Below are positions 11,100 to 25,543 of a stretch of 32,000 nucleotides of DNA, one piece after another (the first letter of the stretch is position 1; each line of letters opens with the position of its first letter). Below the pieces are notes generated by a model. It searched no databases. It saw only the letters and a list, made by a program, of their open reading frames with translations, and had not been told where the DNA came from. This DNA comes from Gynuella sp. GTDB lineage: Bacteria > Pseudomonadota > Gammaproteobacteria > Pseudomonadales > Natronospirillaceae. The position numbers and the translations under genes were made by a program. The stretch lies in NCBI GenBank assembly GCA_028282465.1, contig JANQHX010000021.1:2437-34436 (forward strand), written 5' to 3'.

Positions 11100-14039
11100 T
11101 TAAGATTCATAGCGTGTTTCTATCAGTTTTCCTTTTAGATTGCTCAAATAGACTTGGTAGTATGACTCCATAAGTTCAGCTAGTTTTTCATATTCGTCAT
11201 TGCGTCCAAGTTGATAGCCCGCAGCAAAGTTTACAAAGTCCAGGTCTTTTAATTGCTGAACCATCACCTGATCAAGAAAATCAAACCATCCTTTGATTGA
11301 AGCCGATACCTCACAAGAGAAAGCATCGAACATTTCTTTGGCAGAATTAAATCCTATTCGGACATAATTGTTTCCAATTATTTGAAAAACGCCCATGCTT
11401 GTTGCTTGGTATGCCGCTTCTTCGTTAAGGCTACGGGCGAATTCAAATACCTCCCATTCTTTTCGTTGTTGACCATGAAAGTACTTCCAGTCTTCCTCAA
11501 CAGTTTTTCTCCATTTATGGCCTAACCAAACCTTGCTTGAGTCGTATTGAAAATGTTGGTTATATAAATCAGTGTTTGTTTTACCCCAATATTTCCAAAA
11601 TAAGTGATTTTCAAAACGTATTTTTAAACGATCTGAGTTGGTTTTATCTAGCTCTTCATCGTTAGATATCGAGCACAAAACAGCGAGGATGCAGCCTAAA
11701 TCAATTGCTGTTTTATTGCTGATTTGGAATATGAGTTTGCCGTATTTATCCCAGATAGAAGTCAGCTTGTTTATTTTATCCTTGTCCACAAAATCAGATT
11801 TTATTTCAGCAGGTTTAACCCGACTATTTTTGCCGATAGTAACTGTTAGTTTTCTTGGCCGACCCTGTTCATCCACGTTGTTTTCATCCCATTCCGCAAT
11901 GGAATCTTCATTGCCAAGGTTTTCCCAGATTTCCTTAAACATCATTAACGGGAAAATTCTGTCGTTTGTGTCTTTGCCCCAGAGCCACTTATACAATCGT
12001 GGGTCGGCTGGGTATTGGTTGCCGGGTTGGCCGGTTGAGTTGCTTCTTGCGAAGCCGGGTTGGTTTTCTGAGCAAATTATTTGGGTGTGGTATGCAGCCT
12101 CATTTTCAACCCACTCTTCAACAATGGCCGGGCCTTCCAAATCCTTGTAAAAAGTTTTTAAACACTTGCCAGTGGCTAGATCCCAGAGCTTGAGAGTGTT
12201 ATCAGTGCTTCCGGAAATGAATCGCTGGTCATCCACCATCGCCGCGCTGGTAACCGGGCCTCCATGGCCCACAAAGGTTTGTAAACAATTCCCGGTGGCC
12301 AGATCCCAGAGCTTGAGGGTGCGATCATCGCTTGCGGAAATGGCCCCCTGGTCATCCACCACCGCCACGCTGTTGATCCCGCTCCCATGGCCCACAAAGG
12401 TTTGTAAACACTGCCCAGAGGCCAGATCCCAGAATTTAAGAGTGTTATCATAGCTTCCGGAAATGGCCCGCTGGTCGCCCACCACCGCCACGCTGGTGAC
12501 CGATAGTTGATGGCCCTCAAAGGTTTGTAAACATTGAGCGGAGGCCTGATCCCAGAGCTTGAGGGTGTTATCCCAGCTGGCGGAAATAACCCGCTGGTCA
12601 TCCACCACCGCCAGACTGTTGACCGAGTGTTGATGGCCCTCAAAGGTTTGTAAGCACTGTCCGGAGGCCAGATCCCAGAGCTTGAACGTGTGATCATCGC
12701 TGGCGGAAATGACCCGCCGGTTATCCACCGCCACGCTGCTGACCCAGTCTTCATGGCCCTCAAAGGTTTTTAAACACTGTCCGGAGGCCAGCTCGAAGAG
12801 CTTGAGTGTTCTGTCATAACTGCTGGAAATAACCCGTTGGTGATCCACCACTACCACGCTGCTGACCCAGTTTTCATGGCCCTCAAAGGTTTGTAAGCAC
12901 TGTCCGGAGGCCAGATCCCAGAGCTTGAGGGTGTGATCACCACTGGCGGAAATGACCCGCTGGTCATCCACCACCGCCACGTTGGTGACCCAGTTTTCAT
13001 CCTCAAAGGTTTGTAAGCACTGTCCGGAAGCCAGATCCCAGAGCTTGAGAGTCTTATCACGGCTTGTGGAAATGACCCGCTGGTTATCTACCACCGCCAT
13101 GCTAGTGACCGAGCCTTGATGGCCCTCAAAGGTTTGTAAACACTGCCGGGAGGCCAGATCCCAGAGCTTGAGGTTAGCACGGCTTGCGGAAATGACCCGC
13201 TGGTCATCTACCACCGCCACGCTTGTAACCAGACCTCCATGGCCCTTAAAGGTTTGTAAACAATTGCCGGTGGCCAGATCCCAGAGCTTAAGGGTCTTAT
13301 CACGGCTTGCGGAAATGACCCGCTGGTCATCCACCACCGCCACGTTGGTGACTGGGCTTTTATGGCCCTCAAAGGTTTGTAAGCACTGTCCGGAGGCCAG
13401 CTCCCAGAGCGTGAGGGTCTTATCACGGCTTGCGGAAATGACCCGCTGGTCATCCACCACCGCCACGCTGCTGACCCAGTTTTCATCCTCAAAGGTTTGT
13501 AAGCACTGTCCGGATGCCAGATCCCATATCTTTAGAGTGTTATCATCGCTTCCGGAAATGACCCGCTGGTCATCCACCACCGCCACGCTGGTGACCGAGT
13601 CTCGATGGCCCTCAAAGGTTTGTAAACACTGCCGGGAGGCGAGATCCCAGAGCTTGAGGGTGTAATCATCGCTGGCGGAAATGACCTTCTGGTGATCCAC
13701 CACAGCTACGCTGGTGATCGAGGCTTGATGGCCAAGCCTAGTTAGACTTGGCAGCGATGTTTTTAGGTTAGCTGGGGTGTGCCATGGCACTCGCGTTTTT
13801 GATGTTGTGGAGTCACTTTCATTAAACCGAGCAAAATAATGCTCGGAGTAGGCCAGCGGTGTGCCCTCAAGGTTTGCCGGTGTTAAATCAAGCCCGCGAA
13901 TATAAGAACCGCTTAGATCCAGCTTGGAATAGTCCAATGTCTCAGCTCCAACAGTTGCTAAGCCGATAGGCTGAGCAGATTTGTATTCCGGGTTTATTTT
14001 TTTAACTAAAAGAGAAAGCGCCTGTGCGGTTTTATCCAT
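11100..14039 (-). CDS. WD40-repeat (13 blades) protein fused to a C-terminal DUF3380/N-acetylmuramidase-like domain
   Basis: 979 aa with no signal peptide. Residues 103-631 form 13 tandem 40/41-aa WD units (GHxxxVxSVAVVDDQRVISASxDxTLKLWDLASGQCLQTFE). Residues ~760-979 carry IRFENH, WLGHKWR, FHGQQRKEWEVF and SMGVFQIIG, about 50% identical by eye to the C-terminus of the 16202..17542 product. The ATG at 14039 overlaps the upstream KAP gene stop by 8 nt. Confidence 0.85.
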   Translation of the reverse strand: MDKTAQALSLLVKKINPEYKSAQPIGLATVGAETLDYSKLDLSGSYIRGLDLTPANLEGTPLAYSEHYFARFNESDSTTSKTRVPWHTPANLKTSLPSLTRLGHQASITSVAVVDHQKVISASDDYTLKLWDLASRQCLQTFEGHRDSVTSVAVVDDQRVISGSDDNTLKIWDLASGQCLQTFEDENWVSSVAVVDDQRVISASRDKTLTLWELASGQCLQTFEGHKSPVTNVAVVDDQRVISASRDKTLKLWDLATGNCLQTFKGHGGLVTSVAVVDDQRVISASRANLKLWDLASRQCLQTFEGHQGSVTSMAVVDNQRVISTSRDKTLKLWDLASGQCLQTFEDENWVTNVAVVDDQRVISASGDHTLKLWDLASGQCLQTFEGHENWVSSVVVVDHQRVISSSYDRTLKLFELASGQCLKTFEGHEDWVSSVAVDNRRVISASDDHTFKLWDLASGQCLQTFEGHQHSVNSLAVVDDQRVISASWDNTLKLWDQASAQCLQTFEGHQLSVTSVAVVGDQRAISGSYDNTLKFWDLASGQCLQTFVGHGSGINSVAVVDDQGAISASDDRTLKLWDLATGNCLQTFVGHGGPVTSAAMVDDQRFISGSTDNTLKLWDLATGKCLKTFYKDLEGPAIVEEWVENEAAYHTQIICSENQPGFARSNSTGQPGNQYPADPRLYKWLWGKDTNDRIFPLMMFKEIWENLGNEDSIAEWDENNVDEQGRPRKLTVTIGKNSRVKPAEIKSDFVDKDKINKLTSIWDKYGKLIFQISNKTAIDLGCILAVLCSISNDEELDKTNSDRLKIRFENHLFWKYWGKTNTDLYNQHFQYDSSKVWLGHKWRKTVEEDWKYFHGQQRKEWEVFEFARSLNEEAAYQATSMGVFQIIGNNYVRIGFNSAKEMFDAFSCEVSASIKGWFDFLDQVMVQQLKDLDFVNFAAGYQLGRNDEYEKLAELMESYYQVYLSNLKGKLIETRYES
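12147..13733 (-). repeat. Intragenic tandem repeat array (13 units of 120/123 bp) encoding the WD40 blades
   Basis: The motif AGATCCCAGAGCTTGA (or close variants) recurs near 12178, 12300, 12423, 12546, 12669, 12789, 12912, 13032, 13155, 13275, 13398, 13518 and 13641. An exact 42-nt duplicate occurs at 12987-13028 and 13473-13514. Confidence 0.9.
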
Positions 14040-15981
14040 GGTTACTATCCACTAATTGCTCTCCTAAATTTTGTATTCGCTCTAACACCCTGGTTGTTTT
14101 ATAAAATTCTGTCAGTTGAATGGCTGAAGTAATATCGGCTAAGTCTTCTAGCCATTCAATATCGGTAACCAGGGTTTCATTTGAAGTCATATATTCTTCA
14201 GACCTAAATAGCTCTAGCCATTCATGAAAAACTGGGTCTGGTAACTTTTTATGGCGCCATTCTTGTCGCCTAATAAAATCTCTTCTTGAACTTATGTCTG
14301 GCAGCATAAAACCACTTTGTAGCTCCCCCAGATCAACATTCGAAATAGTTTCTAAGTGGTCTTCATTAATGATTTGAACAGGAGCTTTATGCTTTTGAGT
14401 TTCAATAGCTTGATTTTTTAAATACAGGGCCTCGAATTGGTTTAAAGCTTCATCATCAGTAATAGGGTTAGATTTAATTTCATTACCGTGAAAGGCTGCA
14501 AGTGGGTCTATGCTGTAGCGGTTTCGTTTGGATTCACGGAGTAAGTTTTTAAACTGATGCCAAGCCAGTTGATATTCACTGACGGTTATTGGGCTGGTTG
14601 GATTCTGAGTGCCTTCCAAAGCCTCTTTATTACTTTTATCCACCTCTTCAACGATTGTCTGGGCCTCGAATCTATAACTCATTTTGCATTCAAACAACCA
14701 GTTGTATACCACTTCATTAGACCTGAGCAGGCGATATAAGCTGGAGAATTGCTGTTCTAAAATAGTAATTCTGGCTAGATGTTCTAAGTGCTGGTCATGC
14801 TGGTTAATAAATTCTTTGCCGCCTTCTAGGTTTTGAATGGTATCTCGCTTGAGTTGTATGGCTTCTGCGGCTCGAATAAGTTTTCTAGGTACAGGTGGAA
14901 TGGCTTGGTTAAATAAATTCAATAAGGGTAGATTTAATTTAGTTTCTGCATGTTTATCCTCTGGTTGTTCGTCTTGGCGATCATCTATTTGACTAGCTTT
15001 TTGGGCATCTTCTGCTTTTTCTTCAACTACAAAAAGGCTTGGGTAATGTTCAATTAAATAAGCTTGGGTTTGGTTTTGTGACCACCTAGGCAAATGAATA
15101 GGAATATGAACAATCTTTTCTAAATACTCTGCGCCGGTAATAGGTGGGCTGATATTGGAGTCTCGGTCTTTTTCTAAAAAGTAGTCTTTGTATCTATGGT
15201 TAATGCCTCGTTCAACCACTTCGTCGTCTACGGCTAGCACAAAGGCAAAATTATTAATATTTAAAAATAGTTTGATGGATTCAAGCATTTGTACTGCGTT
15301 ATCTGGCAGGCATCTGTCCAAGTCATCTACAAGTACAATAATTCTAATTTTGAGTTTATCGTCGTCAGGTGATTGGGTGAGTTGTTCAAGTGATTCAAAG
15401 GTACCGTAATACATGGACTCCATCTTTTTAGTCGCTTCATTTTTCTTAGCGTCAGAAGCTGCCGCTGATTCTAGGCTGTCTTTGCCACTGAATTTGATGA
15501 CACCAAAATCAAAACTCAAACCAGTTGCGACAGATCTCGTTAAATCAGCAATGGTTTCACCGGTTTTTATTAGCAAGGATTTAAGTTGGTCAGTAACAGC
15601 CCTTGTTAATGTCAAGGCATGGCTTTCGATCTTGCTTTGATACTTTTCTAACTGGTTTTCAATGGTTTTTAACAGAGGAATGATTAAAAAGTCTTCCTGC
15701 TCGTATTTCCAAGGGGAGAAAAACACAGGAATATTGATATGCTTTATCGAGTTGTCTTCAGTATTTGAGTCTTGCCAGATTAAATTTTCAGATTTGGAGT
15801 AGTGTTTTTCAATCTGTCTTAGGTGCCAGGTTTTACCTATGCCCCATTCACCATAAACAGACACCACCAATGCTTCACCACTGGCTTTGTGGGGAAAACT
15901 GGTATTAATAACATCACAAATGTTACTGACGATTTCGCTAGAAACATCACTGGAAACGTTAGCGGTATCCGAAACGGGCAT
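14032..15981 (-). CDS. KAP-family P-loop NTPase (soluble form)
   Basis: Walker A is VYGEWGIGKT. It is followed by FFSPWKYE, and the Walker B region is IIVLVDDLDRCLPDNAVQMLESIKLFL..FAFVLAVDDE. This is the hallmark KAP arrangement. No TM insertion is seen. A helical C-terminal region of about 330 aa has unknown function. Confidence 0.8.
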   Translation of the reverse strand: MPVSDTANVSSDVSSEIVSNICDVINTSFPHKASGEALVVSVYGEWGIGKTWHLRQIEKHYSKSENLIWQDSNTEDNSIKHINIPVFFSPWKYEQEDFLIIPLLKTIENQLEKYQSKIESHALTLTRAVTDQLKSLLIKTGETIADLTRSVATGLSFDFGVIKFSGKDSLESAAASDAKKNEATKKMESMYYGTFESLEQLTQSPDDDKLKIRIIVLVDDLDRCLPDNAVQMLESIKLFLNINNFAFVLAVDDEVVERGINHRYKDYFLEKDRDSNISPPITGAEYLEKIVHIPIHLPRWSQNQTQAYLIEHYPSLFVVEEKAEDAQKASQIDDRQDEQPEDKHAETKLNLPLLNLFNQAIPPVPRKLIRAAEAIQLKRDTIQNLEGGKEFINQHDQHLEHLARITILEQQFSSLYRLLRSNEVVYNWLFECKMSYRFEAQTIVEEVDKSNKEALEGTQNPTSPITVSEYQLAWHQFKNLLRESKRNRYSIDPLAAFHGNEIKSNPITDDEALNQFEALYLKNQAIETQKHKAPVQIINEDHLETISNVDLGELQSGFMLPDISSRRDFIRRQEWRHKKLPDPVFHEWLELFRSEEYMTSNETLVTDIEWLEDLADITSAIQLTEFYKTTRVLERIQNLGEQLVDSNHG

Positions 15982-16201
15982 CTTTAAATGAGTCCATCCT
16001 TGAGACTACATGAGTATTCAATTGCTGGCGTCTAAATTCAATGGTTTCAAACCAATAAAGTCATGAGTTTTTCATTGATCCAAAACTAATTTGGTTGATG
16101 TTTGCTGAGCTAGTATGGGTATCTGCGCATTATCCGTTAGCAGTCAAAAAATAAGCCTGCTAAATTGCTATGACTGAAAGAAAATACAAGGAAATGTGTT
16201 C

Positions 16202-17542
16202 ATGTTTGCCAAGGTAACCGCGTCTGCGCTCAATGTACGATCTGTGCCCAAGGCCTCAGGGAAAATTTTGGGTGTCCTTCACAAGGATCAAGTCATCCGC
16301 ATAGAAGGTGAGGAGGGCAGTTGGAGCCAATTAGCTTATATGGGTCAAACTGGATTTGTGGCAACAGAGTATTTGACGTTTGAATTTGAAACGGATCAAT
16401 TAATGGGCAAAGTGACTGCCTCTTCACTGAATGTCAGGCCCGACCCTTCAACCTCGAATGAGCCTATTACAAAACTGGATAATGGGGTAGAGGTGAGCGT
16501 TTTAAAGCAGGTGGAGGATTGGTACGAAATAGCACTGCCGGATTCCACAGGTTTTGTGTCAGCCAAGTTCATTGACGTCAGTATCCCTGACCAACCCAGC
16601 TTGATTTTGGTGAATGCTAGTAATTTAAATGTTCGTTCTGGGCCTTCAACTGACCATGAAATTATCGGTTCAGTTGACCAGGGCACTCAATTAATCAAAG
16701 TGTCAGACAATAATGATTGGATTGAAGTTCGGTTTAATGATGAACCTGGGTATGTGCATTCTGATTTTGTAAAACCATTTAGTGGCACTGCCAAGAAACC
16801 AAGGGCAAGACGTACCCGTCTAATCAATTCAACAAGCGCCTCATCGACTGACAGCGCATTGGAACCAGACACTCAGCTGTTAATTGAAGGGGACAAAACC
16901 CAGAAAAAGGTGGCTAGAACCTGGAATAGCTTTGGTGGCATTTTACAAAAGCTCAGTTCAGATTTTGGTTTTGAAGCTGCCAGCGCAATAGCTGTGCTTT
17001 GTGTTGAAAGTTCGGGTAAGGGTTTTCAAAAAAGTAATGACAACCGCATGATCATTCGTTTTGAAAACCACAAGTTTGACGGTTATTGGGGTGAACAGAA
17101 TTCAGAATTATTTGATCAGCATTTCAAATACAACAAGAAGGGTAAGAAATGGCTGGGTCATGAGTGGCGAGAAACTACCAACGATGAGTGGAGTCGCTTT
17201 CATGGCAAACAAAGAAAGGAATGGGAGGTGTTTAATTTCGCAAGACACTTAGACAGTGATGCGGCCATGATGTCTATTAGCATGGGAGCTCCCCAGATTA
17301 TGGGTTTTCATTATAAACGACTGAATTACTCATCAGTGGCTGAAATGTTCGATCAGTTTTCCACTGACATGGCGGCGCAAATTGAAGGATTGTTTCGTTT
17401 TCTGGATAAACGAATGATAAAGGCATTAGTGGAAAAAGACTTTGTGGAGTTTGCTCGCTGGTATAATGGTGCTGGACAAAAACAAAAATATGGCGGCTGG
17501 ATTATGGATCATTATCAGGCCTTTAAATCTTTAGCGAATTAA
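16202..17542 (+). CDS. Three SH3b domains fused to a DUF3380/N-acetylmuramidase domain (endolysin-like)
   Basis: Three SH3_3-like units are present (ALNVRSVP...GFVATEYL; SLNVRPDP...GFVSAKFI; NLNVRSGP...GYVHSDFV). After a basic/Ser-rich linker the domain carries AVLCVESSGKGF, IRFENH, SMGAPQIMG and FARWYNG. The track starts at GTG 16196. ATG 16202 has better spacing to AAGGA (16187-16191). No signal peptide was found. Confidence 0.8.
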   Translation: MFAKVTASALNVRSVPKASGKILGVLHKDQVIRIEGEEGSWSQLAYMGQTGFVATEYLTFEFETDQLMGKVTASSLNVRPDPSTSNEPITKLDNGVEVSVLKQVEDWYEIALPDSTGFVSAKFIDVSIPDQPSLILVNASNLNVRSGPSTDHEIIGSVDQGTQLIKVSDNNDWIEVRFNDEPGYVHSDFVKPFSGTAKKPRARRTRLINSTSASSTDSALEPDTQLLIEGDKTQKKVARTWNSFGGILQKLSSDFGFEAASAIAVLCVESSGKGFQKSNDNRMIIRFENHKFDGYWGEQNSELFDQHFKYNKKGKKWLGHEWRETTNDEWSRFHGKQRKEWEVFNFARHLDSDAAMMSISMGAPQIMGFHYKRLNYSSVAEMFDQFSTDMAAQIEGLFRFLDKRMIKALVEKDFVEFARWYNGAGQKQKYGGWIMDHYQAFKSLAN

Positions 17543-17559: not shown

Positions 17560-18237
17560 ATGAAAACAGTGTTAGTTACTGGTGGCAATCGAGGTATTGG
17601 CAAGGCCATCGTGGTTGGGTTAGCTCAGCAGGGCTATAAGGTGTTGTTGGGGTGTCGTAATTTAAATGCTGGGGAAGATGTCGCCAAAGAAATTCAAGGC
17701 GATATTGTTCCTGTCGCTTTGGATCTGATGGATACATCTGTTTTATTATCTCAAATTGAAGATTTACTAACTCAATTTCCGCAGATTGATATTCTGGTTA
17801 ATAATGCTGGTGTACTTTATGAAGGCGGTGTTGTCACCGGCGACATGGCTGAAATGGCAGAAACCATTCAAGTGAATGTCATGGCGCCCTATATTTTAAC
17901 CAAGGCCTTAGTGCCTGGAATGCAGAATAGAAATTTTGGTCGCATTGTCAATTTGTCTTCCGGCTGGGGATCATTTTCTGAGGGTTTAGCTGGCCCGGCT
18001 TCTTATTCCATTAGTAAAGCGGCCATTAATGGTTTAACTGTTACCCTTGCAAAAGAGTTGTCTGGTGATGTGACTGTGAATTCAATGTGCCCAGGCTGGG
18101 TCCATACTCGCATGGGGGGAGAAGCCGCTCCGCGAACTCCAGAGCAGGGCGCAGAAACTGCTATTTGGTTAGCCTCCCAAGACGCTGGTGGCCCTAATGG
18201 ACAATTCTTTAGAGACAAAACCCCCATCAACTGGTAA
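17560..18237 (+). CDS. SDR-family oxidoreductase (carbonyl-reductase-like)
   Basis: Motifs TGGNRGIGKAI (dinucleotide-binding), NNAG, and catalytic YSISKAA (YxxxK). Confidence 0.85.
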   Translation: MKTVLVTGGNRGIGKAIVVGLAQQGYKVLLGCRNLNAGEDVAKEIQGDIVPVALDLMDTSVLLSQIEDLLTQFPQIDILVNNAGVLYEGGVVTGDMAEMAETIQVNVMAPYILTKALVPGMQNRNFGRIVNLSSGWGSFSEGLAGPASYSISKAAINGLTVTLAKELSGDVTVNSMCPGWVHTRMGGEAAPRTPEQGAETAIWLASQDAGGPNGQFFRDKTPINW

Positions 18238-19502: not shown

Positions 19503-20015
19503 TCAGGATTTGACAGCGAACATTTGTCCATCAGGTGCCACTGAAACCATCACCAGTTTTATATTTGATTCACTATTTGAGTCCCAGCCCAATAGCAAAG
19601 TATCGTCTTCACTTAATTGAATGTGCTCTTGATTATTTGGGCAGGGGATTACTAGTTTTGCAAATACCTGAACCATTCTTTCTGGTGATTCATTGTCTAC
19701 AACCAATAAATACTTCTGGCCATAGTGCACGCCTTGGCACACGGCGGCTTCGCCTTTAACAAGTGCAACCCCATTTATTTTAACCTGTGACTCAAACTGG
19801 TTAACTGAAGGTCTAATCCAGTTTTCTGTAATGGGTGCTGAAGCCGTTAAAATTGCGAGGGCGAGATTTCCATACATGTAATGTCGGATAGAAAAAAGTA
19901 CCGATGGTTTTGGAGACTTTTTCTGGGTTTCTTGACTTAGTAACTTAAAAGAAAGAAGTGATAATAAGAATACCAAGCCTGGTAATCCTAGTTTTAAGAT
20001 TTCGATAATATCCAT
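19503..20015 (-). CDS. Hypothetical membrane protein
   Basis: 170 aa. A strong RBS AAGGAGG lies upstream of the ATG. There are two N-terminal hydrophobic segments. I recognise no family. Confidence 0.5.
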   Translation of the reverse strand: MDIIEILKLGLPGLVFLLSLLSFKLLSQETQKKSPKPSVLFSIRHYMYGNLALAILTASAPITENWIRPSVNQFESQVKINGVALVKGEAAVCQGVHYGQKYLLVVDNESPERMVQVFAKLVIPCPNNQEHIQLSEDDTLLLGWDSNSESNIKLVMVSVAPDGQMFAVKS

Positions 20016-20274: not shown

Positions 20275-20952
20275 TTAGTCTCGTCTTACTCGAATCAGTA
20301 TTCGTCGGTTCTGAGTTCTGCGTTCTTCAACAGGAATGGTTTCGTCTGTGACCTTGGGGCGCGAATCAGCATAGCCAGAAGCTTTCATTTGCATTGGGTC
20401 TAAGCCCTGTTCTTGAAAATACTTCACTATGTTTGTGGCGCGATTGGAACTGAGCTCCCAGTTGGAATCGTATTTCTCATTGTGAATGGGAACATCATCT
20501 GTATGACCTTCAATTTCGACAATGTAATAACCTTGAAGATTGTTCGAAACCACTTTCGCTACATCATTCAACAGAGGTAATGCCTGTGGTTGTATATCGG
20601 CACTGCCAGAATCGTAAAGCGGAAAGTTAGTAAACTCCAGTAATACGCCTTTGTCATCAATGGTGACATTTGCAAACTGTTCCAGATCTCGAGTTTCGAT
20701 AACGGATTGCCAACCCGCTTCGATATCTCGCAATGGAGTTTGAACCTTTGTGTTGCTGATGGCTTCAGCTAAGCCTTCTTTTAACGCTTCAATTTTGCCT
20801 TGATTTAAATCTGAGACGCTCATGATCATGACAAAAAAAGCAAGCAACAAAGTGATCACATCGGAATAGGTCACTAACCAACTGTCTTGCTCTCCTTCAC
20901 CCCCTAGCCTTGGCCGACGTCGCTCTGCTCCAGGCCGTGTGCGAAGATTCAT
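20275..20952 (-). CDS. MotB/PomB-like stator subunit with OmpA-type peptidoglycan-binding domain
   Basis: The TM segment WLVTYSDVITLLLAFFVMIMSV contains the conserved channel Asp. The C-terminal OmpA-like motifs are IEGHTDDVPI, SNWELSSNRATNIVKYF and NRRILIRV. The start codon directly abuts the upstream stop (TAAATG). Confidence 0.85.
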   Translation of the reverse strand: MNLRTRPGAERRRPRLGGEGEQDSWLVTYSDVITLLLAFFVMIMSVSDLNQGKIEALKEGLAEAISNTKVQTPLRDIEAGWQSVIETRDLEQFANVTIDDKGVLLEFTNFPLYDSGSADIQPQALPLLNDVAKVVSNNLQGYYIVEIEGHTDDVPIHNEKYDSNWELSSNRATNIVKYFQEQGLDPMQMKASGYADSRPKVTDETIPVEERRTQNRRILIRVRRD

Positions 20953-21750
20953 TTAAGATTGCTCGCTTGCCATGTCGTAGTAGGCTTTGGGGTTAATTAA
21001 TGCGTTAAGTCGGTCTTGTATGGTGAGGGCGTCGGCCTTTTCCATCATGAATACAAACCCGTCACACCAGAGTTGATGCCGTAAATATTCCCCTTCCATT
21101 TTTTTAAAAATATGAACGGCGGCAGGTCTGAAAATCAACTGAGCCAGCATGACGCCATAGAGAGTGGTGATTAAGGCCAACGCAAGACCTTTGCCTAAGG
21201 CAGTTATGTCCCCATCCATGTTATCTAACATGATGATTAAGCCGATGATAGTACCAACCATACCAAAGGCCGGTGAGTAACTAGCCATGGTGTGTAACAC
21301 TTTTGCCGATTGAGTTCTTCGAGAAAAATCCGCTTCAATGCGGTTAGATATTAAATAGCGAATCTCTTTAGAATCATAGCCCGCAGTTATTTGTTCTAAA
21401 CAATAAGTTAGAAACTCGTTCTTTTTTTCTTTGTTGGTAAGGGAATTTGAAACCGCTGTGAGACCTTGTTGTCGATAGATTTGGCTCCATTCAATAAAAC
21501 GTTTGATGTCTGACCTCAGGGTGCTGTGGTTGTCGCGCTCTTCACTGAAAGTTCGAAAAAGAGCAAAAATAGCGGTGACAAACTCCTTCATGTTGTAACT
21601 AATAATGGTCGCCGCTGCTGTTCCACCCAACACCATAGCAACACTGGTGGGGCTAATAAAAATAATGAAGTTATCGGTATTCGAGGTGATCGCATAAAAG
21701 AATAATGCGATGGCACCTATGATGCCGATGAGTGTGCTAATAAATGTCAT
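20953..21750 (-). CDS. MotA/PomA-like proton/sodium channel stator subunit
   Basis: 265 aa with four TM segments in the MotA/PomA arrangement (two N-terminal, a cytoplasmic loop, two C-terminal). It carries YSPAFGMVGTIIGLI and ALITTLYGVMLAQLIF. It has an ATGA overlap with the upstream gene. Confidence 0.85.
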   Translation of the reverse strand: MTFISTLIGIIGAIALFFYAITSNTDNFIIFISPTSVAMVLGGTAAATIISYNMKEFVTAIFALFRTFSEERDNHSTLRSDIKRFIEWSQIYRQQGLTAVSNSLTNKEKKNEFLTYCLEQITAGYDSKEIRYLISNRIEADFSRRTQSAKVLHTMASYSPAFGMVGTIIGLIIMLDNMDGDITALGKGLALALITTLYGVMLAQLIFRPAAVHIFKKMEGEYLRHQLWCDGFVFMMEKADALTIQDRLNALINPKAYYDMASEQS

Positions 21751-23687
21751 TCAATGGTTGCCAAATCTTGCATACTGAATTTACCGGTTTTTATTAATTC
21801 ACGAATATGGTGAACAATGGTACGACGAGATTGCTCAACGAGGTTATCGTCCGGTTGAGAGTCTGTGTATTGAAGTTGATCTTGTACCGCAGCTCGTACC
21901 TTTGAAGGCAGTGCTTCTAGAATATATTTCACTAACTGCGGGTTGGCATTTGCGAGCGCCGAGGTCAATTGCTTTCTGTCTACTTCCCGAAGAATTTCAC
22001 CTAGAATTTCAGGTGGTGTTCTGCCTAGATCATTAAAGGTGTAGTAAACCTGTCGTAAGCGATAATAGGTTTCTGGTGAGTCCTGCTTAATTCGGTCTAG
22101 CAACTGATGCTCGTCAGAAGAGGGTAAGTTGTCGAGCATATCAATCAACAGAGCGGTGCCATCGGTATTGAGGTTTTCAAAGCTAGGCACGTTTAAAGAT
22201 TTTTTGGCAAGTCTGTCTGCGACATCTCTAAACGTGGCAATGGGAAATTCATTAAATTGTCCAATTTCGTAAGCAATTTGGCCCTGCTGTGCCGGTGCTA
22301 AATGTTTTAGCAAAGCCGCAGCCCGTGTGGCAGAGACTTGAGACAGTACCAAGGCTTTGATTCTGGGTTCTTCATCTTGCAGAAGGTAAACAATTTGGCC
22401 ATCAGCCAGTCGATCTAAAAATTTAAATGGCTTAGAAGGATGATGCTCCGGAAAGGATGCCTGATCTCGTAGTAATACATGCCTTAGTGCGGTTAACTCG
22501 GAGTGAACTTCATCTGGTGTTAATTGGTTTTGTTCCAGAAATTGAGTGATCTCATAAATCTGTCCAGTGCTGATGGACGGGAATAAGCCTCTGAACAGAG
22601 AGCCCCCTAGAGTCTGGTAGGCGGATGCTAGGGTTTTTAAATAGTTACCACCCAATAGTAAATCTTCAACCCGTCCACTGGCCCGTTCTGGATTACCAAG
22701 GCCAGCGGTAATAATTTCTTGTTTTAGAGATCGGATGTCGGCAACCACTGGTGCTTCAGAGGTTTCGTTGCTGATAGCACTAGGTACGCTAATGGGCGCC
22801 TGGTTTACTGTTGAGTCTGGCGGTAGTGTATATTTAGGCTTTCTAAAAATGAGGATCAGCAACAGTAAAAAAATAGACGCCGCAAAAGCCAGTGCAACCC
22901 AAGGTACCCAAGTTTGCTGCCACCAGTTTAACTCTTCGCTAGTACTATTGGGGTCCAGCGCTTCCGGCATTCTGGTGTCTGGTTCGCTGTTCAATTCATC
23001 AGAAATGGATTCAAAAGGCGTTTTTACCAGAACAAGGCGGTCACCACGAAAGTAATTCAGTTTCAGCTTACTCTCTAAAAGTGTTCTGACAAATTCTTCC
23101 TGAGAGAGACTAATGGTTTCGTCAATTAATATGGTTACCACCAGGTTTTCTATTCTGGAGAAAATGTCCTGACTAGTTTCCAGTATTTCTTCAACGGGCT
23201 CGCCGCTGTCTTCAAAATTAACAAGACTTTCCCGCATGGATTTTAAACTTTCCAGTACCGGTGAATCCGTGGGTGCTGGTACTTCAACGGATGCATCTTC
23301 ACCAAAGGGTAATCCTGGTAGTTGAATGCTTTCTGGCGTGGAGGATTGTTGTTGTTCCAGCGTCTTTTGTTCTAGTTCCTCGATAAGAGCATTGAGGTTT
23401 TGTAATTTTTGTTCTTGAGCTGGGCTTAAAATATAGTCAGGTGCCGCTTTTGGAATGGTACCTCGCAACCGTTGAATACGGGCATCAATATTGATGATGA
23501 AACGATCATTACCCAAGTAGGCTCGAAGGTCTCTGGTAATTCGGTTTTCCATCTGCCCGATGAATTCCATTTCTGTCATCACGTCTTGTTCAGCAGAAAT
23601 GAACTCGTCAACACTCCAAGCTTTGGCGCTTAGCAAAACCAACAAACTGACGCTGACCCATAAAAAGTATTTGTTCATGTTCATCAT
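21747..23687 (-). CDS. Bitopic membrane protein: periplasmic N-terminal half, TM, and FliG-like (middle + C-terminal domain) cytoplasmic half
   Basis: It has a signal/anchor (YFLWVSVSLLVLLSAKAW), an acidic periplasmic region of about 230 aa, and a TM at residues ~256-281 followed by RKPK. Residues ~420-640 show FliG-type motifs: IVYLLQDEEPRIKALVLSQVSATRAAALLKHLAPAQQGQIAYEI (compare LLxxEHPQxxAxxLSxL), VYYTFNDL (compare MFxFxDL) and ILREVDRKQLTSALANA..LPSKVRAAV. Similarity was judged by eye only. Confidence 0.65.
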   Translation of the reverse strand: MMNMNKYFLWVSVSLLVLLSAKAWSVDEFISAEQDVMTEMEFIGQMENRITRDLRAYLGNDRFIINIDARIQRLRGTIPKAAPDYILSPAQEQKLQNLNALIEELEQKTLEQQQSSTPESIQLPGLPFGEDASVEVPAPTDSPVLESLKSMRESLVNFEDSGEPVEEILETSQDIFSRIENLVVTILIDETISLSQEEFVRTLLESKLKLNYFRGDRLVLVKTPFESISDELNSEPDTRMPEALDPNSTSEELNWWQQTWVPWVALAFAASIFLLLLILIFRKPKYTLPPDSTVNQAPISVPSAISNETSEAPVVADIRSLKQEIITAGLGNPERASGRVEDLLLGGNYLKTLASAYQTLGGSLFRGLFPSISTGQIYEITQFLEQNQLTPDEVHSELTALRHVLLRDQASFPEHHPSKPFKFLDRLADGQIVYLLQDEEPRIKALVLSQVSATRAAALLKHLAPAQQGQIAYEIGQFNEFPIATFRDVADRLAKKSLNVPSFENLNTDGTALLIDMLDNLPSSDEHQLLDRIKQDSPETYYRLRQVYYTFNDLGRTPPEILGEILREVDRKQLTSALANANPQLVKYILEALPSKVRAAVQDQLQYTDSQPDDNLVEQSRRTIVHHIRELIKTGKFSMQDLATIE

Positions 23688-24443
23688 TTAGTTAAATAGA
23701 ACTTCCAGACCCTTTCGAACATCTTCCATGTTGGGATCAATTTCTAATGCTTGTTCCCAAGCCGTTTTGGCTTCTTCTCTGCGGCCCATTTTGTAATAAA
23801 TACTGCCCTTTAAGGCATAGGCCAGTGCAAATTCAGGCTGTTGATTGATTGCCTGTAATGTCGCGTTCAATGCACCTAGATAGTCTCGCCGGTAAAACAG
23901 TTGTTGTGCCAATACAATACTGTCGTTAGCAGTCATTCCTGACGATGGCGTCGGGTTTAATGTTGTCTCGGTAATGCCATCTGCATTGGTTGTTTCATCA
24001 ATAGGTAACTCGCGATTACTTGAATTTGGTTGTTCATTCTCTCCCATATCCATGGACTTCAGTTTTTCTGCAACTGCACCTAATGGATCATCAGTCTCTT
24101 CCGATTCAGGTAAGTCCATAACAAAGGCAACGTTTTCTTCGCCAGTATCTAGAATTAAGGAGATGTTATAACCCGGACCATGACGGTCTATGGTGATGAC
24201 TCCGAAGTCATCCTTGCCTCTCTGGTTGAGCTGGGTGGGTTCAATTGGCGAATTCGCTTGTAGAATTTGCGATTCTGTGGGGCTAGTTAATTCAGTGTTT
24301 GCGCTGCTATCGCTAATGGTGACGTCTTCGGTTTTAGACGTTTGTTCAGAAGCCGATGTGCCGTTGTTTTGTCCAAACATGGAACAGGCTGATATCAAAA
24401 ACATGGATGTCATTGTCAGCAAAAAAGGAGTCAGTCTTCTCAT
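23688..24443 (-). CDS. TPR-repeat lipoprotein
   Basis: The preferred start is ATG 24443 (MRRLTPFLLTMTSMFLISACS, lipobox ISAC), which overlaps the upstream stop by 1 nt (TAATG). The track start at 24524 would overlap the upstream gene by 82 nt. A Ser/Thr/Glu-rich linker is followed by C-terminal TPR units (YALKGSIYYKMGRREEAKTAWEQALEIDPN). Confidence 0.7.
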   Translation of the reverse strand: MRRLTPFLLTMTSMFLISACSMFGQNNGTSASEQTSKTEDVTISDSSANTELTSPTESQILQANSPIEPTQLNQRGKDDFGVITIDRHGPGYNISLILDTGEENVAFVMDLPESEETDDPLGAVAEKLKSMDMGENEQPNSSNRELPIDETTNADGITETTLNPTPSSGMTANDSIVLAQQLFYRRDYLGALNATLQAINQQPEFALAYALKGSIYYKMGRREEAKTAWEQALEIDPNMEDVRKGLEVLFN

Positions 24444-25543
24444 TAGAATCGATACCCCAAAGTAATGTCGTAACTTGCCCCGCCAAATTCTGAAGATTCT
24501 TCTAGGCCATCTACTTCTTTCCATTCCACTTCTTGTTCAGGTAAATAAATAACACCTAAATCAATGTAGCCGTTTCTTGTAAAAGGAAATTCGATTCCGT
24601 ATTTGTAGACGAGAGATTGTTGTTCTTTAAAAAATGCCTGGCCCAGTTCCAAATACATGAGTGTTGGCACCCATTGCTCCAACGCGGATATATTAACTTC
24701 CACTCGGCCTTCAATAACAAAGCCCAGCATGTCGAAATAATCTGTTTGGGCAAGATTTGAAAAAGTTTCGAAACCAAGACCATAACTAATGTCTTCGTTG
24801 AGTTCTGAATGCTCTCTGCGTCTAATACCGAATGTGGTCACGCTTGATAATTGACGGTCAGAAACGCCAGTGCCTTCTCGTTCTGCACTGAATCCCCATG
24901 CTCCTACAAATAATTCCCAGTCGACTCGGTCAAACTCTTCTTCATTCAGTTCTTCGTCCCGTTTAGCTAATTCGATTGGGTTTGTTTTTCTAGCGTATTG
25001 CCGAGTCCAAACAACATGGTTATCTGTGGCATCAACCAGTCTCATGTCGACAGTAAATTTTTCTTCATACACATTTGCGCTCCACATAAAAAACCCATCC
25101 ACTTGAAGCTTTCTGGCTAGGTTGCGCATGTCTTTGTTACTTTCTATCGCTTGATTAATACTGAGTTGATCGTTTTGAAGTTTTACTTGAATCAATTTGC
25201 ATTCAACACACTCGGTGACCAAAAACTTTTCGGTATCAATCAACTTTTTAATGATCATGCCTTCGATCATGGTTTCTGTTGACTTAGGTATTTTTTTATA
25301 AAGTCTGTCTTCTGTGTGATACAAGGCTACTCGCATCACAGGTATTTCCAAATCCGCAAGCTCTTGCACAGGTAGTGTGTTTTCATCTTCCATGAGTTCT
25401 GCAAACCCGTTGTAGTAACGAGCCTGTGTTTCCACCAAATTACTGGTCTGCCCAGTTTCAGCCTGAACATAGTTCAAAGTAGAAAATAAAATTGTTACCC
25501 ATGTGGCAAAAAATTGCCGCTCGAGACTGGCTTCAGCCTGCAT
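24443..25543 (-). CDS. Putative secreted/outer-membrane protein (first gene of the stator-rotor operon)
   Basis: The N-terminal hydrophobic segment ends in VQA-E. The C-terminal half has alternating aromatic/hydrophilic patterns and ends GYRF, the terminal Phe typical of beta-barrel OMPs. I recognise no family. Confidence 0.45.
   Translation of the reverse strand: MQAEASLERQFFATWVTILFSTLNYVQAETGQTSNLVETQARYYNGFAELMEDENTLPVQELADLEIPVMRVALYHTEDRLYKKIPKSTETMIEGMIIKKLIDTEKFLVTECVECKLIQVKLQNDQLSINQAIESNKDMRNLARKLQVDGFFMWSANVYEEKFTVDMRLVDATDNHVVWTRQYARKTNPIELAKRDEELNEEEFDRVDWELFVGAWGFSAEREGTGVSDRQLSSVTTFGIRRREHSELNEDISYGLGFETFSNLAQTDYFDMLGFVIEGRVEVNISALEQWVPTLMYLELGQAFFKEQQSLVYKYGIEFPFTRNGYIDLGVIYLPEQEVEWKEVDGLEESSEFGGASYDITLGYRF

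What the first reader, a model, noticed from the sequence alone, without database searches (positions are those of the whole stretch)
11100..11760. Muramidase-like domain of the WD40 fusion has Ile where its SH3b-linked paralog keeps the conserved VES glutamate
Gap-free alignment by eye: AIAVLCVESSGKGFQKSNDNRMIIRFENH (SH3b protein) against ILAVLCSISNDEELDKTNSDRLKIRFENH (WD40 protein). Glu271 of the SH3b protein (GAA at 17006-17008) aligns with Ile791 of the WD40 protein (ATA, minus strand 11669-11667). The following SGxGF motif is also lost. Downstream motifs (RFENH, WLGHxWR, QRKEWEVF, SMGxxQI(I/M)G) are retained. From memory, the first conserved Glu of DUF3380 (the V-E-S-x-G context) is the residue reported as essential in a Salmonella phage endolysin of this family. 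This needs verification. Inference: the cytoplasmic WD40-linked copy may be a non-catalytic, ligand-binding pseudoenzyme, while the SH3b copy is the active hydrolase.
Basis: partly seen in the sequence, partly recalled or inferred. Interest (0 to 1): 0.6.

Follow-up and report, generated by a model that had tools for sequence, protein, structure and literature searches.

The report
Endolysin-derived domain lacking its catalytic glutamate
A cytoplasmic WD40 sensor protein, partnered with a KAP ATPase, carries an extra cell-wall-lysin (endolysin) domain that has lost the glutamate such enzymes need to cut peptidoglycan, so it probably binds rather than cuts, although this is untested.

Summary
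Ile791 of the 979-aa WD40 protein (ATA, 11669-11667, minus strand) occupies the column held by Glu271 of the neighbouring 3xSH3b-muramidase. That column is the general-acid Glu of PF11860 endolysins: AP3gp15 E101A loses 99.4% of activity, and Pae87 E29A is strongly impaired.

- About 234 of 237 relatives keep this Glu.
- The WD40-linked domain keeps the second catalytic Glu (E810), H812, Y950 and 40 of 46 highly conserved positions. It models confidently (pLDDT 89) onto the three solved family structures.
- It sits on a long branch next to the clade that holds the neighbour gene.

New context:
- Homologous KAP-partner WD40 proteins elsewhere end before this domain, so it is a C-terminal add-on.
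- The SH3b-muramidase family is a leaderless endolysin. It is followed by a GTA-type 3TM holin in 35 of 69 relatives, but not here.
- KAP, the WD40 protein and the SH3b protein all lack signal peptides and TM helices.

Caveat: all three family members without the Glu carry an acidic residue at +3 (D794 here), which is otherwise Gly. A relocated acid is therefore not excluded.

Verdict: a probable non-catalytic binding module (about 0.5). It is a singleton and a new variant of known kinds. Interest is moderate.

The parts
14032..15981 (-). KAP-family P-loop NTPase (P0003, 649 aa), soluble, first gene of the two-gene operon
   Evidence: PF07693 E 9.5e-37. QatA/PifA-like in PADLOC. No hydrophobic 19-mer above 1.4. 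Its stop overlaps the next gene's start in ATGGATAA.
13755..14039 (-). N-terminal ~95-aa domain of the WD40 protein (P0001), shared with partners of homologous KAP NTPases
   Evidence: 38-45% identity to the first residues of the genes that follow the three closest KAP homologues (L009, L011, L012). The same motif opens P0279 and P0280. No Pfam hit.
12129..13754 (-). 13 highly similar WD40 blades (123-bp unit), with variation confined to the residues after GH and to the S-x-D-x-T positions; G+C 0.54 against about 0.38 in the flanks
   Evidence: TRF: period 123, 13.0 copies, 82% matches. Blade list. Composition. Pfam WD40 E 4e-109.
11805..12128 (-). About 108-aa tail after the propeller, with a PADP motif; homologous partner proteins end at the end of this tail
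   Evidence: P0279 (754 aa) and P0280 (756 aa) stop where this tail stops. The PADP motif and spacing are shared. Pairwise similarity is weak, best E 7.7e-4.
11103..11804 (-). PF11860 muramidase-like (endolysin-derived) domain, residues 746-979, lacking the general-acid Glu
   Evidence: Pfam 93.1 bits against a cut-off of 22.3, with the match starting only after the catalytic helix. Endolysin PHROGs. AF2 pLDDT 89, pTM 0.82. Foldseek probability 1.00 to 7RUM, 5NM7 and 7Q4S/T, TM 0.58-0.77.
11667..11669 (-). Codon ATA = Ile791, in the column of the catalytic general acid (AP3gp15 Glu101, Pae87 Glu29)
   Evidence: The modelled helix ends exactly at this residue, as helix alpha2 of Pae87 ends at Glu29.
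11658..11660 (-). Codon for Asp794 (+3 from the catalytic column), where 90% of relatives have Gly; candidate substitute acid
11610..11612 (-). Codon for Glu810 (RFENH), the retained second catalytic Glu (Pae87 Glu46, AP3gp15 Glu118)
   Evidence: Invariant in 159 of 159 rows. Equivalence.
15982..16195 (.). 214-bp divergent intergenic region between the KAP operon and the SH3b-muramidase gene
   Evidence: ORF map. No sigma-70 or terminator consensus found.
16196..17542 (+). 3xSH3b + PF11860 muramidase (P0002, 448 aa), leaderless, full catalytic set; endolysin type with no adjacent holin
   Evidence: Pfam SH3_3 1.2e-38 and Muramidase 1.2e-36. All 13 clade members start directly with SH3b. A holin lies directly downstream in 35 of 69 relatives. 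The genome's only PF11351 holin is on another contig, beside an amidase.
17006..17008 (+). Codon GAA = Glu271, general acid of the SH3b-linked enzyme

Best explanation
The last 234 residues of the WD40 protein are a catalytic domain captured from a leaderless SH3b-muramidase endolysin of the kind encoded next door. The domain was fused onto the C-terminus of an already complete sensor subunit (N-domain, 13 hypervariable WD40 blades, tail) of a cytoplasmic two-gene KAP-NTPase/WD40 conflict module.

After capture it lost the general-acid Glu (E to I791), the Gly-rich loop that follows it, and the Asn of the YNG motif. It kept the fold, the second Glu, His812, Tyr950 and the SMGxxQ motif.

I therefore read it as a hydrolysis-impaired module kept under selection for binding. 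The most likely ligand is a glycan strand or muropeptide in the conserved cleft. A protein partner such as the neighbouring endolysin is the alternative. The SH3b protein is the active muramidase.

Shown: the substitution, its position at the validated catalytic residue, its rarity, the retained fold and cleft, the add-on architecture, and the absence of export signals.

Inferred: loss of activity, binding, and any link to the output of the KAP switch.
For: - Register and catalytic equivalence. Mutagenesis in PMC5674055 and PMC8972805.
- Rarity: Glu in all but 3 of 157 relatives from a 1.84-billion-protein library and in 80 of 80 metagenome relatives.
- Selective pattern: 40 of 46 columns that are at least 85% conserved are retained, although overall identity to any relative is at most 46%. 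Three of the six losses (E791I, G794D, N943Q) fall in the two active-site motifs.
- Fold intact: pLDDT 89, with the helix ending at I791. Top structural matches are the three solved PF11860 endolysins.
- Origin: the domain groups with the 3xSH3b clade that contains the neighbour (99/95 support), with an end branch of 1.37 against a median of 0.77.
- Add-on: KAP partners P0279 and P0280 end after the tail. The closest KAP homologues have partners with the same N-domain and WD40.
- Cytoplasmic location: no TM helix or signal peptide in the KAP or WD40 protein. In contrast, the STAND-linked muramidases P0112 and P0051 and the L008 gene have a TM helix before the muramidase part.
- The fold can bind a muropeptide away from the active site, as in Pae87 with NAG-MurNAc-L-Ala-D-Glu.
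Against: - No orthologue exists, so conservation of Ile791 and dN/dS cannot be tested. The best relative is 46% identical, and the protein is not on record elsewhere.
- An acidic residue at +3 accompanies every loss of the Glu seen. This could mean relocated catalysis.
- Pae87 Glu mutants retained some activity at the highest concentration tested.
- Another WD40-muramidase fusion (P0007) and a STAND fusion (P0051) keep the Glu. In NTPase-linked proteins the domain is therefore normally an enzyme.
- No binding data exist.
- The loop after I791 is modelled with only moderate confidence (pLDDT about 67).
Confidence: 0.5

Rival explanations
1. The domain is still an active muramidase or lytic enzyme, and its general acid has moved from position 791 to Asp794 (or Glu795/796) in the following loop. 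The fusion would then be a lysis effector tethered to the sensor. Like any leaderless endolysin, it would reach the wall when the membrane is breached.
For: - All three rows without the canonical Glu have an acid at +3: P0001 has I with D, P0095 has Q with E, P0112 has Q with D. Only 1 of about 154 Glu-bearing rows does (P0123), and none of 80 metagenome relatives. By my arithmetic the hypergeometric p is about 2e-6 before correcting for relatedness.
- P0123, P0095 and P0112 share N811V and F921L, so they form one lineage. That gives two independent origins.
- E810, H812 and Y950 are retained.
- NTPase- or WD40-linked relatives P0007 and P0051 keep a normal active site, which suggests an effector role for the domain in such proteins.
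Against: - Asp794 lies in a loop modelled at low confidence, not in the helix, and no coordinates could be inspected.
- The same acid could compensate structurally for the lost charge rather than catalyse.
- Two further active-site motif residues are also changed: Gly794 itself, and N943Q of YNG.
- P0123 shows that the +3 acid can coexist with the Glu.
- The protein has no route to the periplasm, and the genome has no holin beside it.
Confidence: 0.22
2. The domain is a decaying relic. It was captured as a lysis effector, was inactivated by the E to I change, and now drifts without function while the KAP-WD40 core works as in relatives that lack it.
For: - It is a singleton fusion with no relatives.
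- Canonical KAP partners function without it.
- It has a long terminal branch.
- It deviates at 6 of 46 conserved positions, against a family median of 2.
Against: - A 234-codon open frame persists in 38% G+C DNA.
- 87% of the highly conserved positions are retained at 44-46% overall identity, so substitutions were filtered for most of the branch.
- The model is confident and native-like.
- The recurrent Glu-loss with +3-acid pairing points to continued selection at the site.
Confidence: 0.13
3. The fusion is an assembly or annotation artefact: two genes wrongly joined in a draft genome with repeat-rich DNA.
For: - The genome is a 110-contig draft.
- WD40 arrays break assemblies elsewhere. The contigs of the three closest KAP loci end inside the array.
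Against: - The junctions from WD40 to tail and from tail to muramidase lie in unique, non-repeated sequence.
- One uninterrupted 979-codon frame spans them.
- G+C of the tail and of the domain match.
Confidence: 0.03

Closest known systems
PF11860 / DUF3380 N-acetylmuramidase endolysins (AP3gp15 5NM7, Pae87 7Q4S/7Q4T, LysT84 7RUM, Salmonella phage 10 Gp110)
   Same: Same fold (Foldseek probability 1.00, TM up to 0.77). Same second catalytic Glu, His and Tyr. Same SMGxxQ motif.
   Different: The general-acid Glu is replaced by Ile, and the ESxGxGF loop and YNG motif are altered. The domain carries the roughly 45-residue insert typical of the bacterial SH3b-linked subfamily. It is fused behind a WD40 array, not behind a PG_binding_1 or SH3b wall-binding domain.
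Chromosomal leaderless SH3b-muramidase + GTA-type 3TM holin (PF11351) lysis cassettes
   Same: P0002 and the source of the captured domain belong to this endolysin clade.
   Different: No holin follows P0002 here. The genome's single PF11351 holin sits on another contig beside an Amidase_2 gene.
KAP NTPase + hypervariable WD40 partner two-gene modules; KAP NTPases fused to FGE-sulfatase, DUF1566 or WD40 sensors (conflict systems of Kaur et al. 2020, PMC7159879; KAP anti-phage proteins, PMC13552941)
   Same: Translationally coupled KAP gene, shared partner N-domain, highly internally conserved WD40 blades with focused variation.
   Different: The partners seen elsewhere end after a short tail. 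Only this one carries a muramidase-like domain.
Catalytically degenerate peptidoglycan-hydrolase domains used for binding or regulation (dLytM factors EnvC/NlpD; SpmX muramidase domain of Caulobacter) and chitinase-like lectins. These are recalled from general knowledge and were not tested here.
   Same: A hydrolase fold that has lost a catalytic residue but is retained, presumably for binding or for regulating an active paralogue.
   Different: Different folds and families. Those proteins are periplasmic or extracellular and experimentally characterised. This one is cytoplasmic, NTPase-linked and uncharacterised.
STAND NTPase-TM-SH3b/WD40-muramidase proteins (P0112, P0051, the L008 gene holding P0007)
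   Same: An NTPase switch linked to a PF11860 domain. P0112 also lacks the Glu (Q) and has Asp at +3.
   Different: Those have a TM helix that places the muramidase part outside the cytoplasm, and a STAND rather than a KAP NTPase. P0007 and P0051 keep the Glu.

Membership tests
PF11860 Muramidase (DUF3380) fold family | Profile match above Pfam's gathering score | tested here: met
   93.1 bits against a 22.3 cut-off, profile positions 19-172 of 175. P0002 scores 127.1 bits over positions 3-174.
PF11860 Muramidase (DUF3380) fold family | Lysozyme-like two-lobe fold superposable on solved members | tested here: met
   AF2 model pLDDT 89, pTM 0.82. The top seven Foldseek hits are 7RUM, 5NM7 and 7Q4S/T, probability 1.00.
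Catalytically competent PF11860 muramidase | General-acid Glu at the end of the catalytic helix (AP3gp15 Glu101, Pae87 Glu29) | tested here: not met
   Ile791 occupies the column in BLASTP, MAFFT and HMM alignments. The Glu is present in about 234 of 237 relatives.
Catalytically competent PF11860 muramidase | Second catalytic Glu (Pae87 Glu46) and cleft His48/Tyr174 | tested here: met
   E810, H812 and Y950 are retained. Equivalences.
Catalytically competent PF11860 muramidase | Measured muralytic activity | not testable with these tools
   Needs a zymogram or turbidity assay of residues 746-979.
KAP NTPase + WD40 partner conflict module | KAP P-loop NTPase with Walker A and B motifs, translationally coupled to the partner gene | tested here: met
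   PF07693 E 9.5e-37. GEWGIGKT and VDDLDRC are in the translation. 8-nt overlap ATGGATAA.
KAP NTPase + WD40 partner conflict module | Partner shares the N-terminal domain and a WD40 array with partners of homologous KAP genes | tested here: met
   Alignment A2, 38-45% identity. P0279 and P0280.
KAP NTPase + WD40 partner conflict module | Protection against phage or another invader | not testable with these tools
   There are only family-level precedents: QatA/PifA similarity and KAP proteins shown to be anti-phage in PMC13552941.
Endolysin-holin cassette (for P0002) | Leaderless endolysin immediately followed by a holin gene | tested here: not met
   35 of 69 relatives have a PF11351/phrog_3427 holin downstream. 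In the window an SDR gene follows at 17560. The only PF11351 gene in the genome is on contig C77.

The most novel reading that the evidence does not exclude
The dead endolysin domain is an integrated sensing or bait domain of a bacterial NLR-like machine. One version: it reads cytosolic muropeptides as a cell-wall-damage signal, a bacterial parallel to NOD1/NOD2. The other: it mimics the host's own leaderless endolysin to trap phage or host lysis regulators. Either way it would couple wall or lysis status to the KAP NTPase switch.
Probability: 0.1. Interest if true: 0.8.

Novelty: new variant of a known kind. Interest (0 to 1): 0.45.

Why it matters
If the domain is a binding-only derivative, it would be the first PF11860 endolysin fold seen recruited as a non-catalytic module inside a cytoplasmic NTPase/WD40 sensor. 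It would then be a candidate integrated domain in a bacterial NLR-like system, and a possible handle on what KAP-WD40 modules sense or do.

The recurrent pairing of Glu loss with a new acid three residues later is a small, directly testable question about active-site plasticity in this endolysin family, which is being engineered as enzybiotics.

If the domain is merely inactive, the locus is a curiosity.

Tried and rejected
- **Close orthologues for a conservation or dN/dS test.** The word-indexed search found 6 and then 3 hits. The exhaustive HMMER search found a best identity of 46%. The exact look-up was not on record. I found 0 of 37 genomes in the same family and 2 of 400 in the phylum, and one Deltaproteobacteria MAG in genome contigs. 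No orthologue exists in these collections.
- **More non-Glu family members, to test the +3-acid covariation.** All 80 metagenome loci had Glu and Gly.
- **FastTree placement of the domain.** It was unresolved (support 0.03). I replaced it with an IQ-TREE PMSF tree.
- **Synteny test for co-insertion of the three genes.** Relatives are too distant: the flanking SDR is at most 50% identical and present in only 2 of 37 genomes. I abandoned this.
- **A link between the SDR next to the closest KAP homologue (L011) and the window's SDR.** No similarity was found.
- **A holin near P0002.** The 170-aa membrane ORF at 19503-20015 has no Pfam hit.
- **Inspection of model coordinates, to measure where Asp794 points.** Coordinates are not exposed to the Python box.
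- **The Gp110 paper (PMC4968549).** It was not held.
- **Promoter and terminator scan of the divergent intergenic region.** Nothing was found.
Full report
**What is there**

Window 11100-15981 (minus strand) holds two genes whose ends overlap in ATGGATAA.
- The first is a soluble KAP-family P-loop NTPase: P0003, 649 aa, PF07693 E 9.5e-37, QatA/PifA-like in PADLOC.
- The second is a 979-aa protein, P0001.

P0001 has four parts:
- A ~95-aa N-terminal domain with no Pfam hit.
- Thirteen WD40 blades from a 123-bp unit that is 82% identical at the DNA level. G+C is 0.54 against about 0.38 in the flanks. Variation is confined to the three residues after GH and to the S-x-D-x-T positions.
- A ~108-aa tail.
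- A C-terminal PF11860 Muramidase (DUF3380) domain, 93 bits against a cut-off of 22.

P0002 (448 aa) is transcribed divergently, 214 bp away. It has three SH3b domains and a PF11860 domain. These are the only two PF11860 copies in the 4.48-Mb genome.

**The observation**

It is exact. Ile791 (ATA, 11669-11667) aligns with Glu271 (GAA, 17006-17008).
- BLASTP gives 44% identity over 195 residues (E 4e-58) with no gap between the AVLC anchor and RFENH.
- MAFFT with 11 relatives (A1) and a query-anchored HMM alignment of 157 relatives keep the same register.
- The Pfam local match of P0001 starts only at profile position 19. It skips the divergent catalytic helix rather than offering another acid.

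P0002's VES aligns with VES of the three solved family members. In AP3gp15 that Glu (Glu101) changed to Ala costs 99.4% of activity (PMC5674055). In Pae87 it is Glu29, the presumed general acid, and Glu46 (the FE(R/N)H Glu) is the second catalytic residue. E29A, E46A and the double mutant lose peptidoglycan solubilisation at non-saturating concentration, but keep some activity at the highest concentration (PMC8972805).

**How unusual it is**

An exhaustive HMMER search of 1.84 billion representative proteins gave 1386 hits.
- After correcting three alignment slips and two truncations, only three of the 157 alignable top hits lack the Glu: P0001 (Ile), P0095 (Gln) and P0112 (Gln).
- All 80 relatives fetched from metagenomes have Glu.
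- No relative is more than 46% identical to the P0001 domain, and the protein is not on record elsewhere.
- The family is absent from the 37 other genomes of the same taxonomic family that were searched. It was found in 2 of 400 other genomes sampled from the phylum.

**Is the domain otherwise intact?**

Yes.
- Of 46 columns that are at least 85% conserved in the family, P0001 keeps 40. These include E810 (invariant in 159 of 159 rows), H812, the SMGxxQ motif and Y942. Y950, the equivalent of Pae87 Tyr174, is invariant in A1 and also kept.
- The six deviations are N764D, E791I, G794D, S879A, Y897F and N943Q. Three of them fall in the two active-site motifs (ESxGxGF and YNG).
- An AlphaFold2 model of residues 744-979 has pLDDT 89 and pTM 0.82. 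Its second helix ends exactly at Ile791, as helix alpha2 of Pae87 ends at Glu29. The loop that follows is less confident, at about 67.
- Foldseek ranks LysT84, AP3gp15 and Pae87 first: probability 1.00, TM 0.58-0.77.
- Keeping 87% of conserved positions at roughly 45% overall identity means substitutions were filtered by selection over most of this lineage. This argues against a freely decaying remnant.

**Where the domain came from**

An IQ-TREE (LG+C20 PMSF) tree places the domain with the clade of ~440-aa 3xSH3b-muramidases that contains P0002 (99/95 support). Its end branch is 1.37 against a median of 0.77. FastTree could not place it.

That clade is leaderless. Every member starts directly with the first SH3b domain. 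In 35 of 69 metagenome relatives with enough downstream sequence, the next gene on the same strand is a GTA-type 3TM holin (PF11351, phrog_3427). P0002 is therefore an endolysin of a chromosomal endolysin-holin cassette type.

Here no holin follows it. The genome's single PF11351 gene lies on another contig beside an Amidase_2 gene.

**The domain is an add-on**

- The closest KAP homologues (39-46% identity) are each followed by an overlapping or closely following gene that opens with the same N-terminal domain and then WD40 blades. Their contigs break inside the array.
- More distant KAP homologues in long contigs have complete partners, P0279 (754 aa) and P0280 (756 aa). Both have the same N-terminal motif, WD40 blades and a short tail with a PADP motif, and then stop. 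The tail similarity is weak (best E 7.7e-4) but matches in position.
- Other relatives of this KAP carry FGE-sulfatase, DUF1566 or WD40 domains in the same polypeptide. These are typical diversifying sensors of conflict systems (PMC7159879, PMC10907252), and KAP proteins have recently been shown to protect against phage (PMC13552941).

P0001 is thus a complete KAP partner to which an endolysin catalytic domain, without its SH3b domains, has been appended.

**Comparison with other NTPase-linked muramidases**

Among about 237 relatives, none of the 80 metagenome loci has WD40 or KAP. From the protein library:
- P0007 is a WD40-muramidase that keeps the Glu. It lies in a locus where nSTAND1, a TM helix, WD40 and muramidase sit in three overlapping frames.
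- P0051 is STAND-TM-muramidase and keeps the Glu.
- P0112 is nSTAND1-TM-SH3b-muramidase-M23 and has Gln.

All three have a TM helix between the NTPase and the muramidase part. This would put the muramidase outside the cytoplasm, next to its substrate. P0001 and P0003 have no TM helix or signal peptide. The WD40-linked domain is therefore separated from the wall.

**An unexpected covariation**

Position +3 from the catalytic column is Gly in about 90% of the family. It is acidic in all three non-Glu members (D794 in P0001, E in P0095, D in P0112). Among about 154 Glu-bearing rows it is acidic only in P0123, and in none of the 80 metagenome relatives.

P0123, P0095 and P0112 share N811V and F921L, so they are one lineage. 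There are therefore two independent origins.

Either the acid has moved, leaving a still-active enzyme, or the new acid compensates structurally or electrostatically for the lost one. In both cases the site is still under selection. I could not inspect coordinates to see where Asp794 points.

**Verdict**

The most likely reading is a hydrolysis-impaired, endolysin-derived binding module on the sensor subunit of a cytoplasmic KAP-WD40 conflict system (about 0.5), with the SH3b protein as the active enzyme. The rivals are:
- a relocated general acid, leaving the domain active (about 0.22);
- a functionless relic (about 0.13);
- an assembly artefact (about 0.03).

What the module binds, and how it feeds into the KAP switch, is inferred and not shown.

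The scan's earlier notes describe KAP + hypervariable WD40 pairs in other genomes with no recognisable effector. This agrees with my own finding that the muramidase-like domain is peculiar to this locus.

Noticed in passing
L021-L055 and other metagenome loci (e.g. L021:2251-4106): Leaderless SH3b-muramidase genes are followed directly by a GTA-type 3TM holin (PF11351, phrog_3427) in 35 of 69 relatives. The flanks are ordinary chromosomal genes (LysR, response regulator, antiporter) rather than phage genes. This looks like a free-standing chromosomal endolysin-holin cassette.
   Followed up: partly
P0095, P0112, P0123 (protein ids; column 794 of the P0001-anchored alignment): A small 'RFEVH' lineage of PF11860 domains carries Asp or Glu at +3 from the catalytic Glu, and two of its three members have Gln in place of the Glu. 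Together with P0001, this gives two independent pairings of Glu loss with a +3 acid.
   Followed up: partly
L008:6070-10166: nSTAND1 NTPase, a TM helix plus coiled coil, and WD40-muramidase-TPR lie in three overlapping reading frames. This is probably one gene with two frameshifts (a pseudogene or an assembly error). It is followed by an M23 peptidase-ferredoxin gene.
   Followed up: partly
P0112 (1238 aa, JGI metagenome protein): A single polypeptide of nSTAND1 NTPase, TM helix, SH3b, muramidase (Gln at the catalytic column) and M23 peptidase. It is a transmembrane STAND protein with peptidoglycan modules on the outside.
   Followed up: no
window 12129-13754: The WD40 array has G+C 0.53-0.55, while the rest of the same gene and its neighbours have 0.38-0.39.
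   Followed up: no
G000 contig C77:9800-10900 (L103:932-2010): The genome's only PF11351 holin (206 aa) overlaps the start of a 157-aa Amidase_2 gene. This is a second, different lysis cassette.
   Followed up: partly
L007:1588-6011: In a Deltaproteobacteria MAG, a 323-aa SH3b-muramidase is followed by a 1130-aa protein with a patatin-like phospholipase domain.
   Followed up: no
window 20275-25543: MotB-like, MotA-like and a 646-aa FliG-domain protein lie in one operon with no other flagellar genes in the window. The scan has already noted and followed this up.
   Followed up: no
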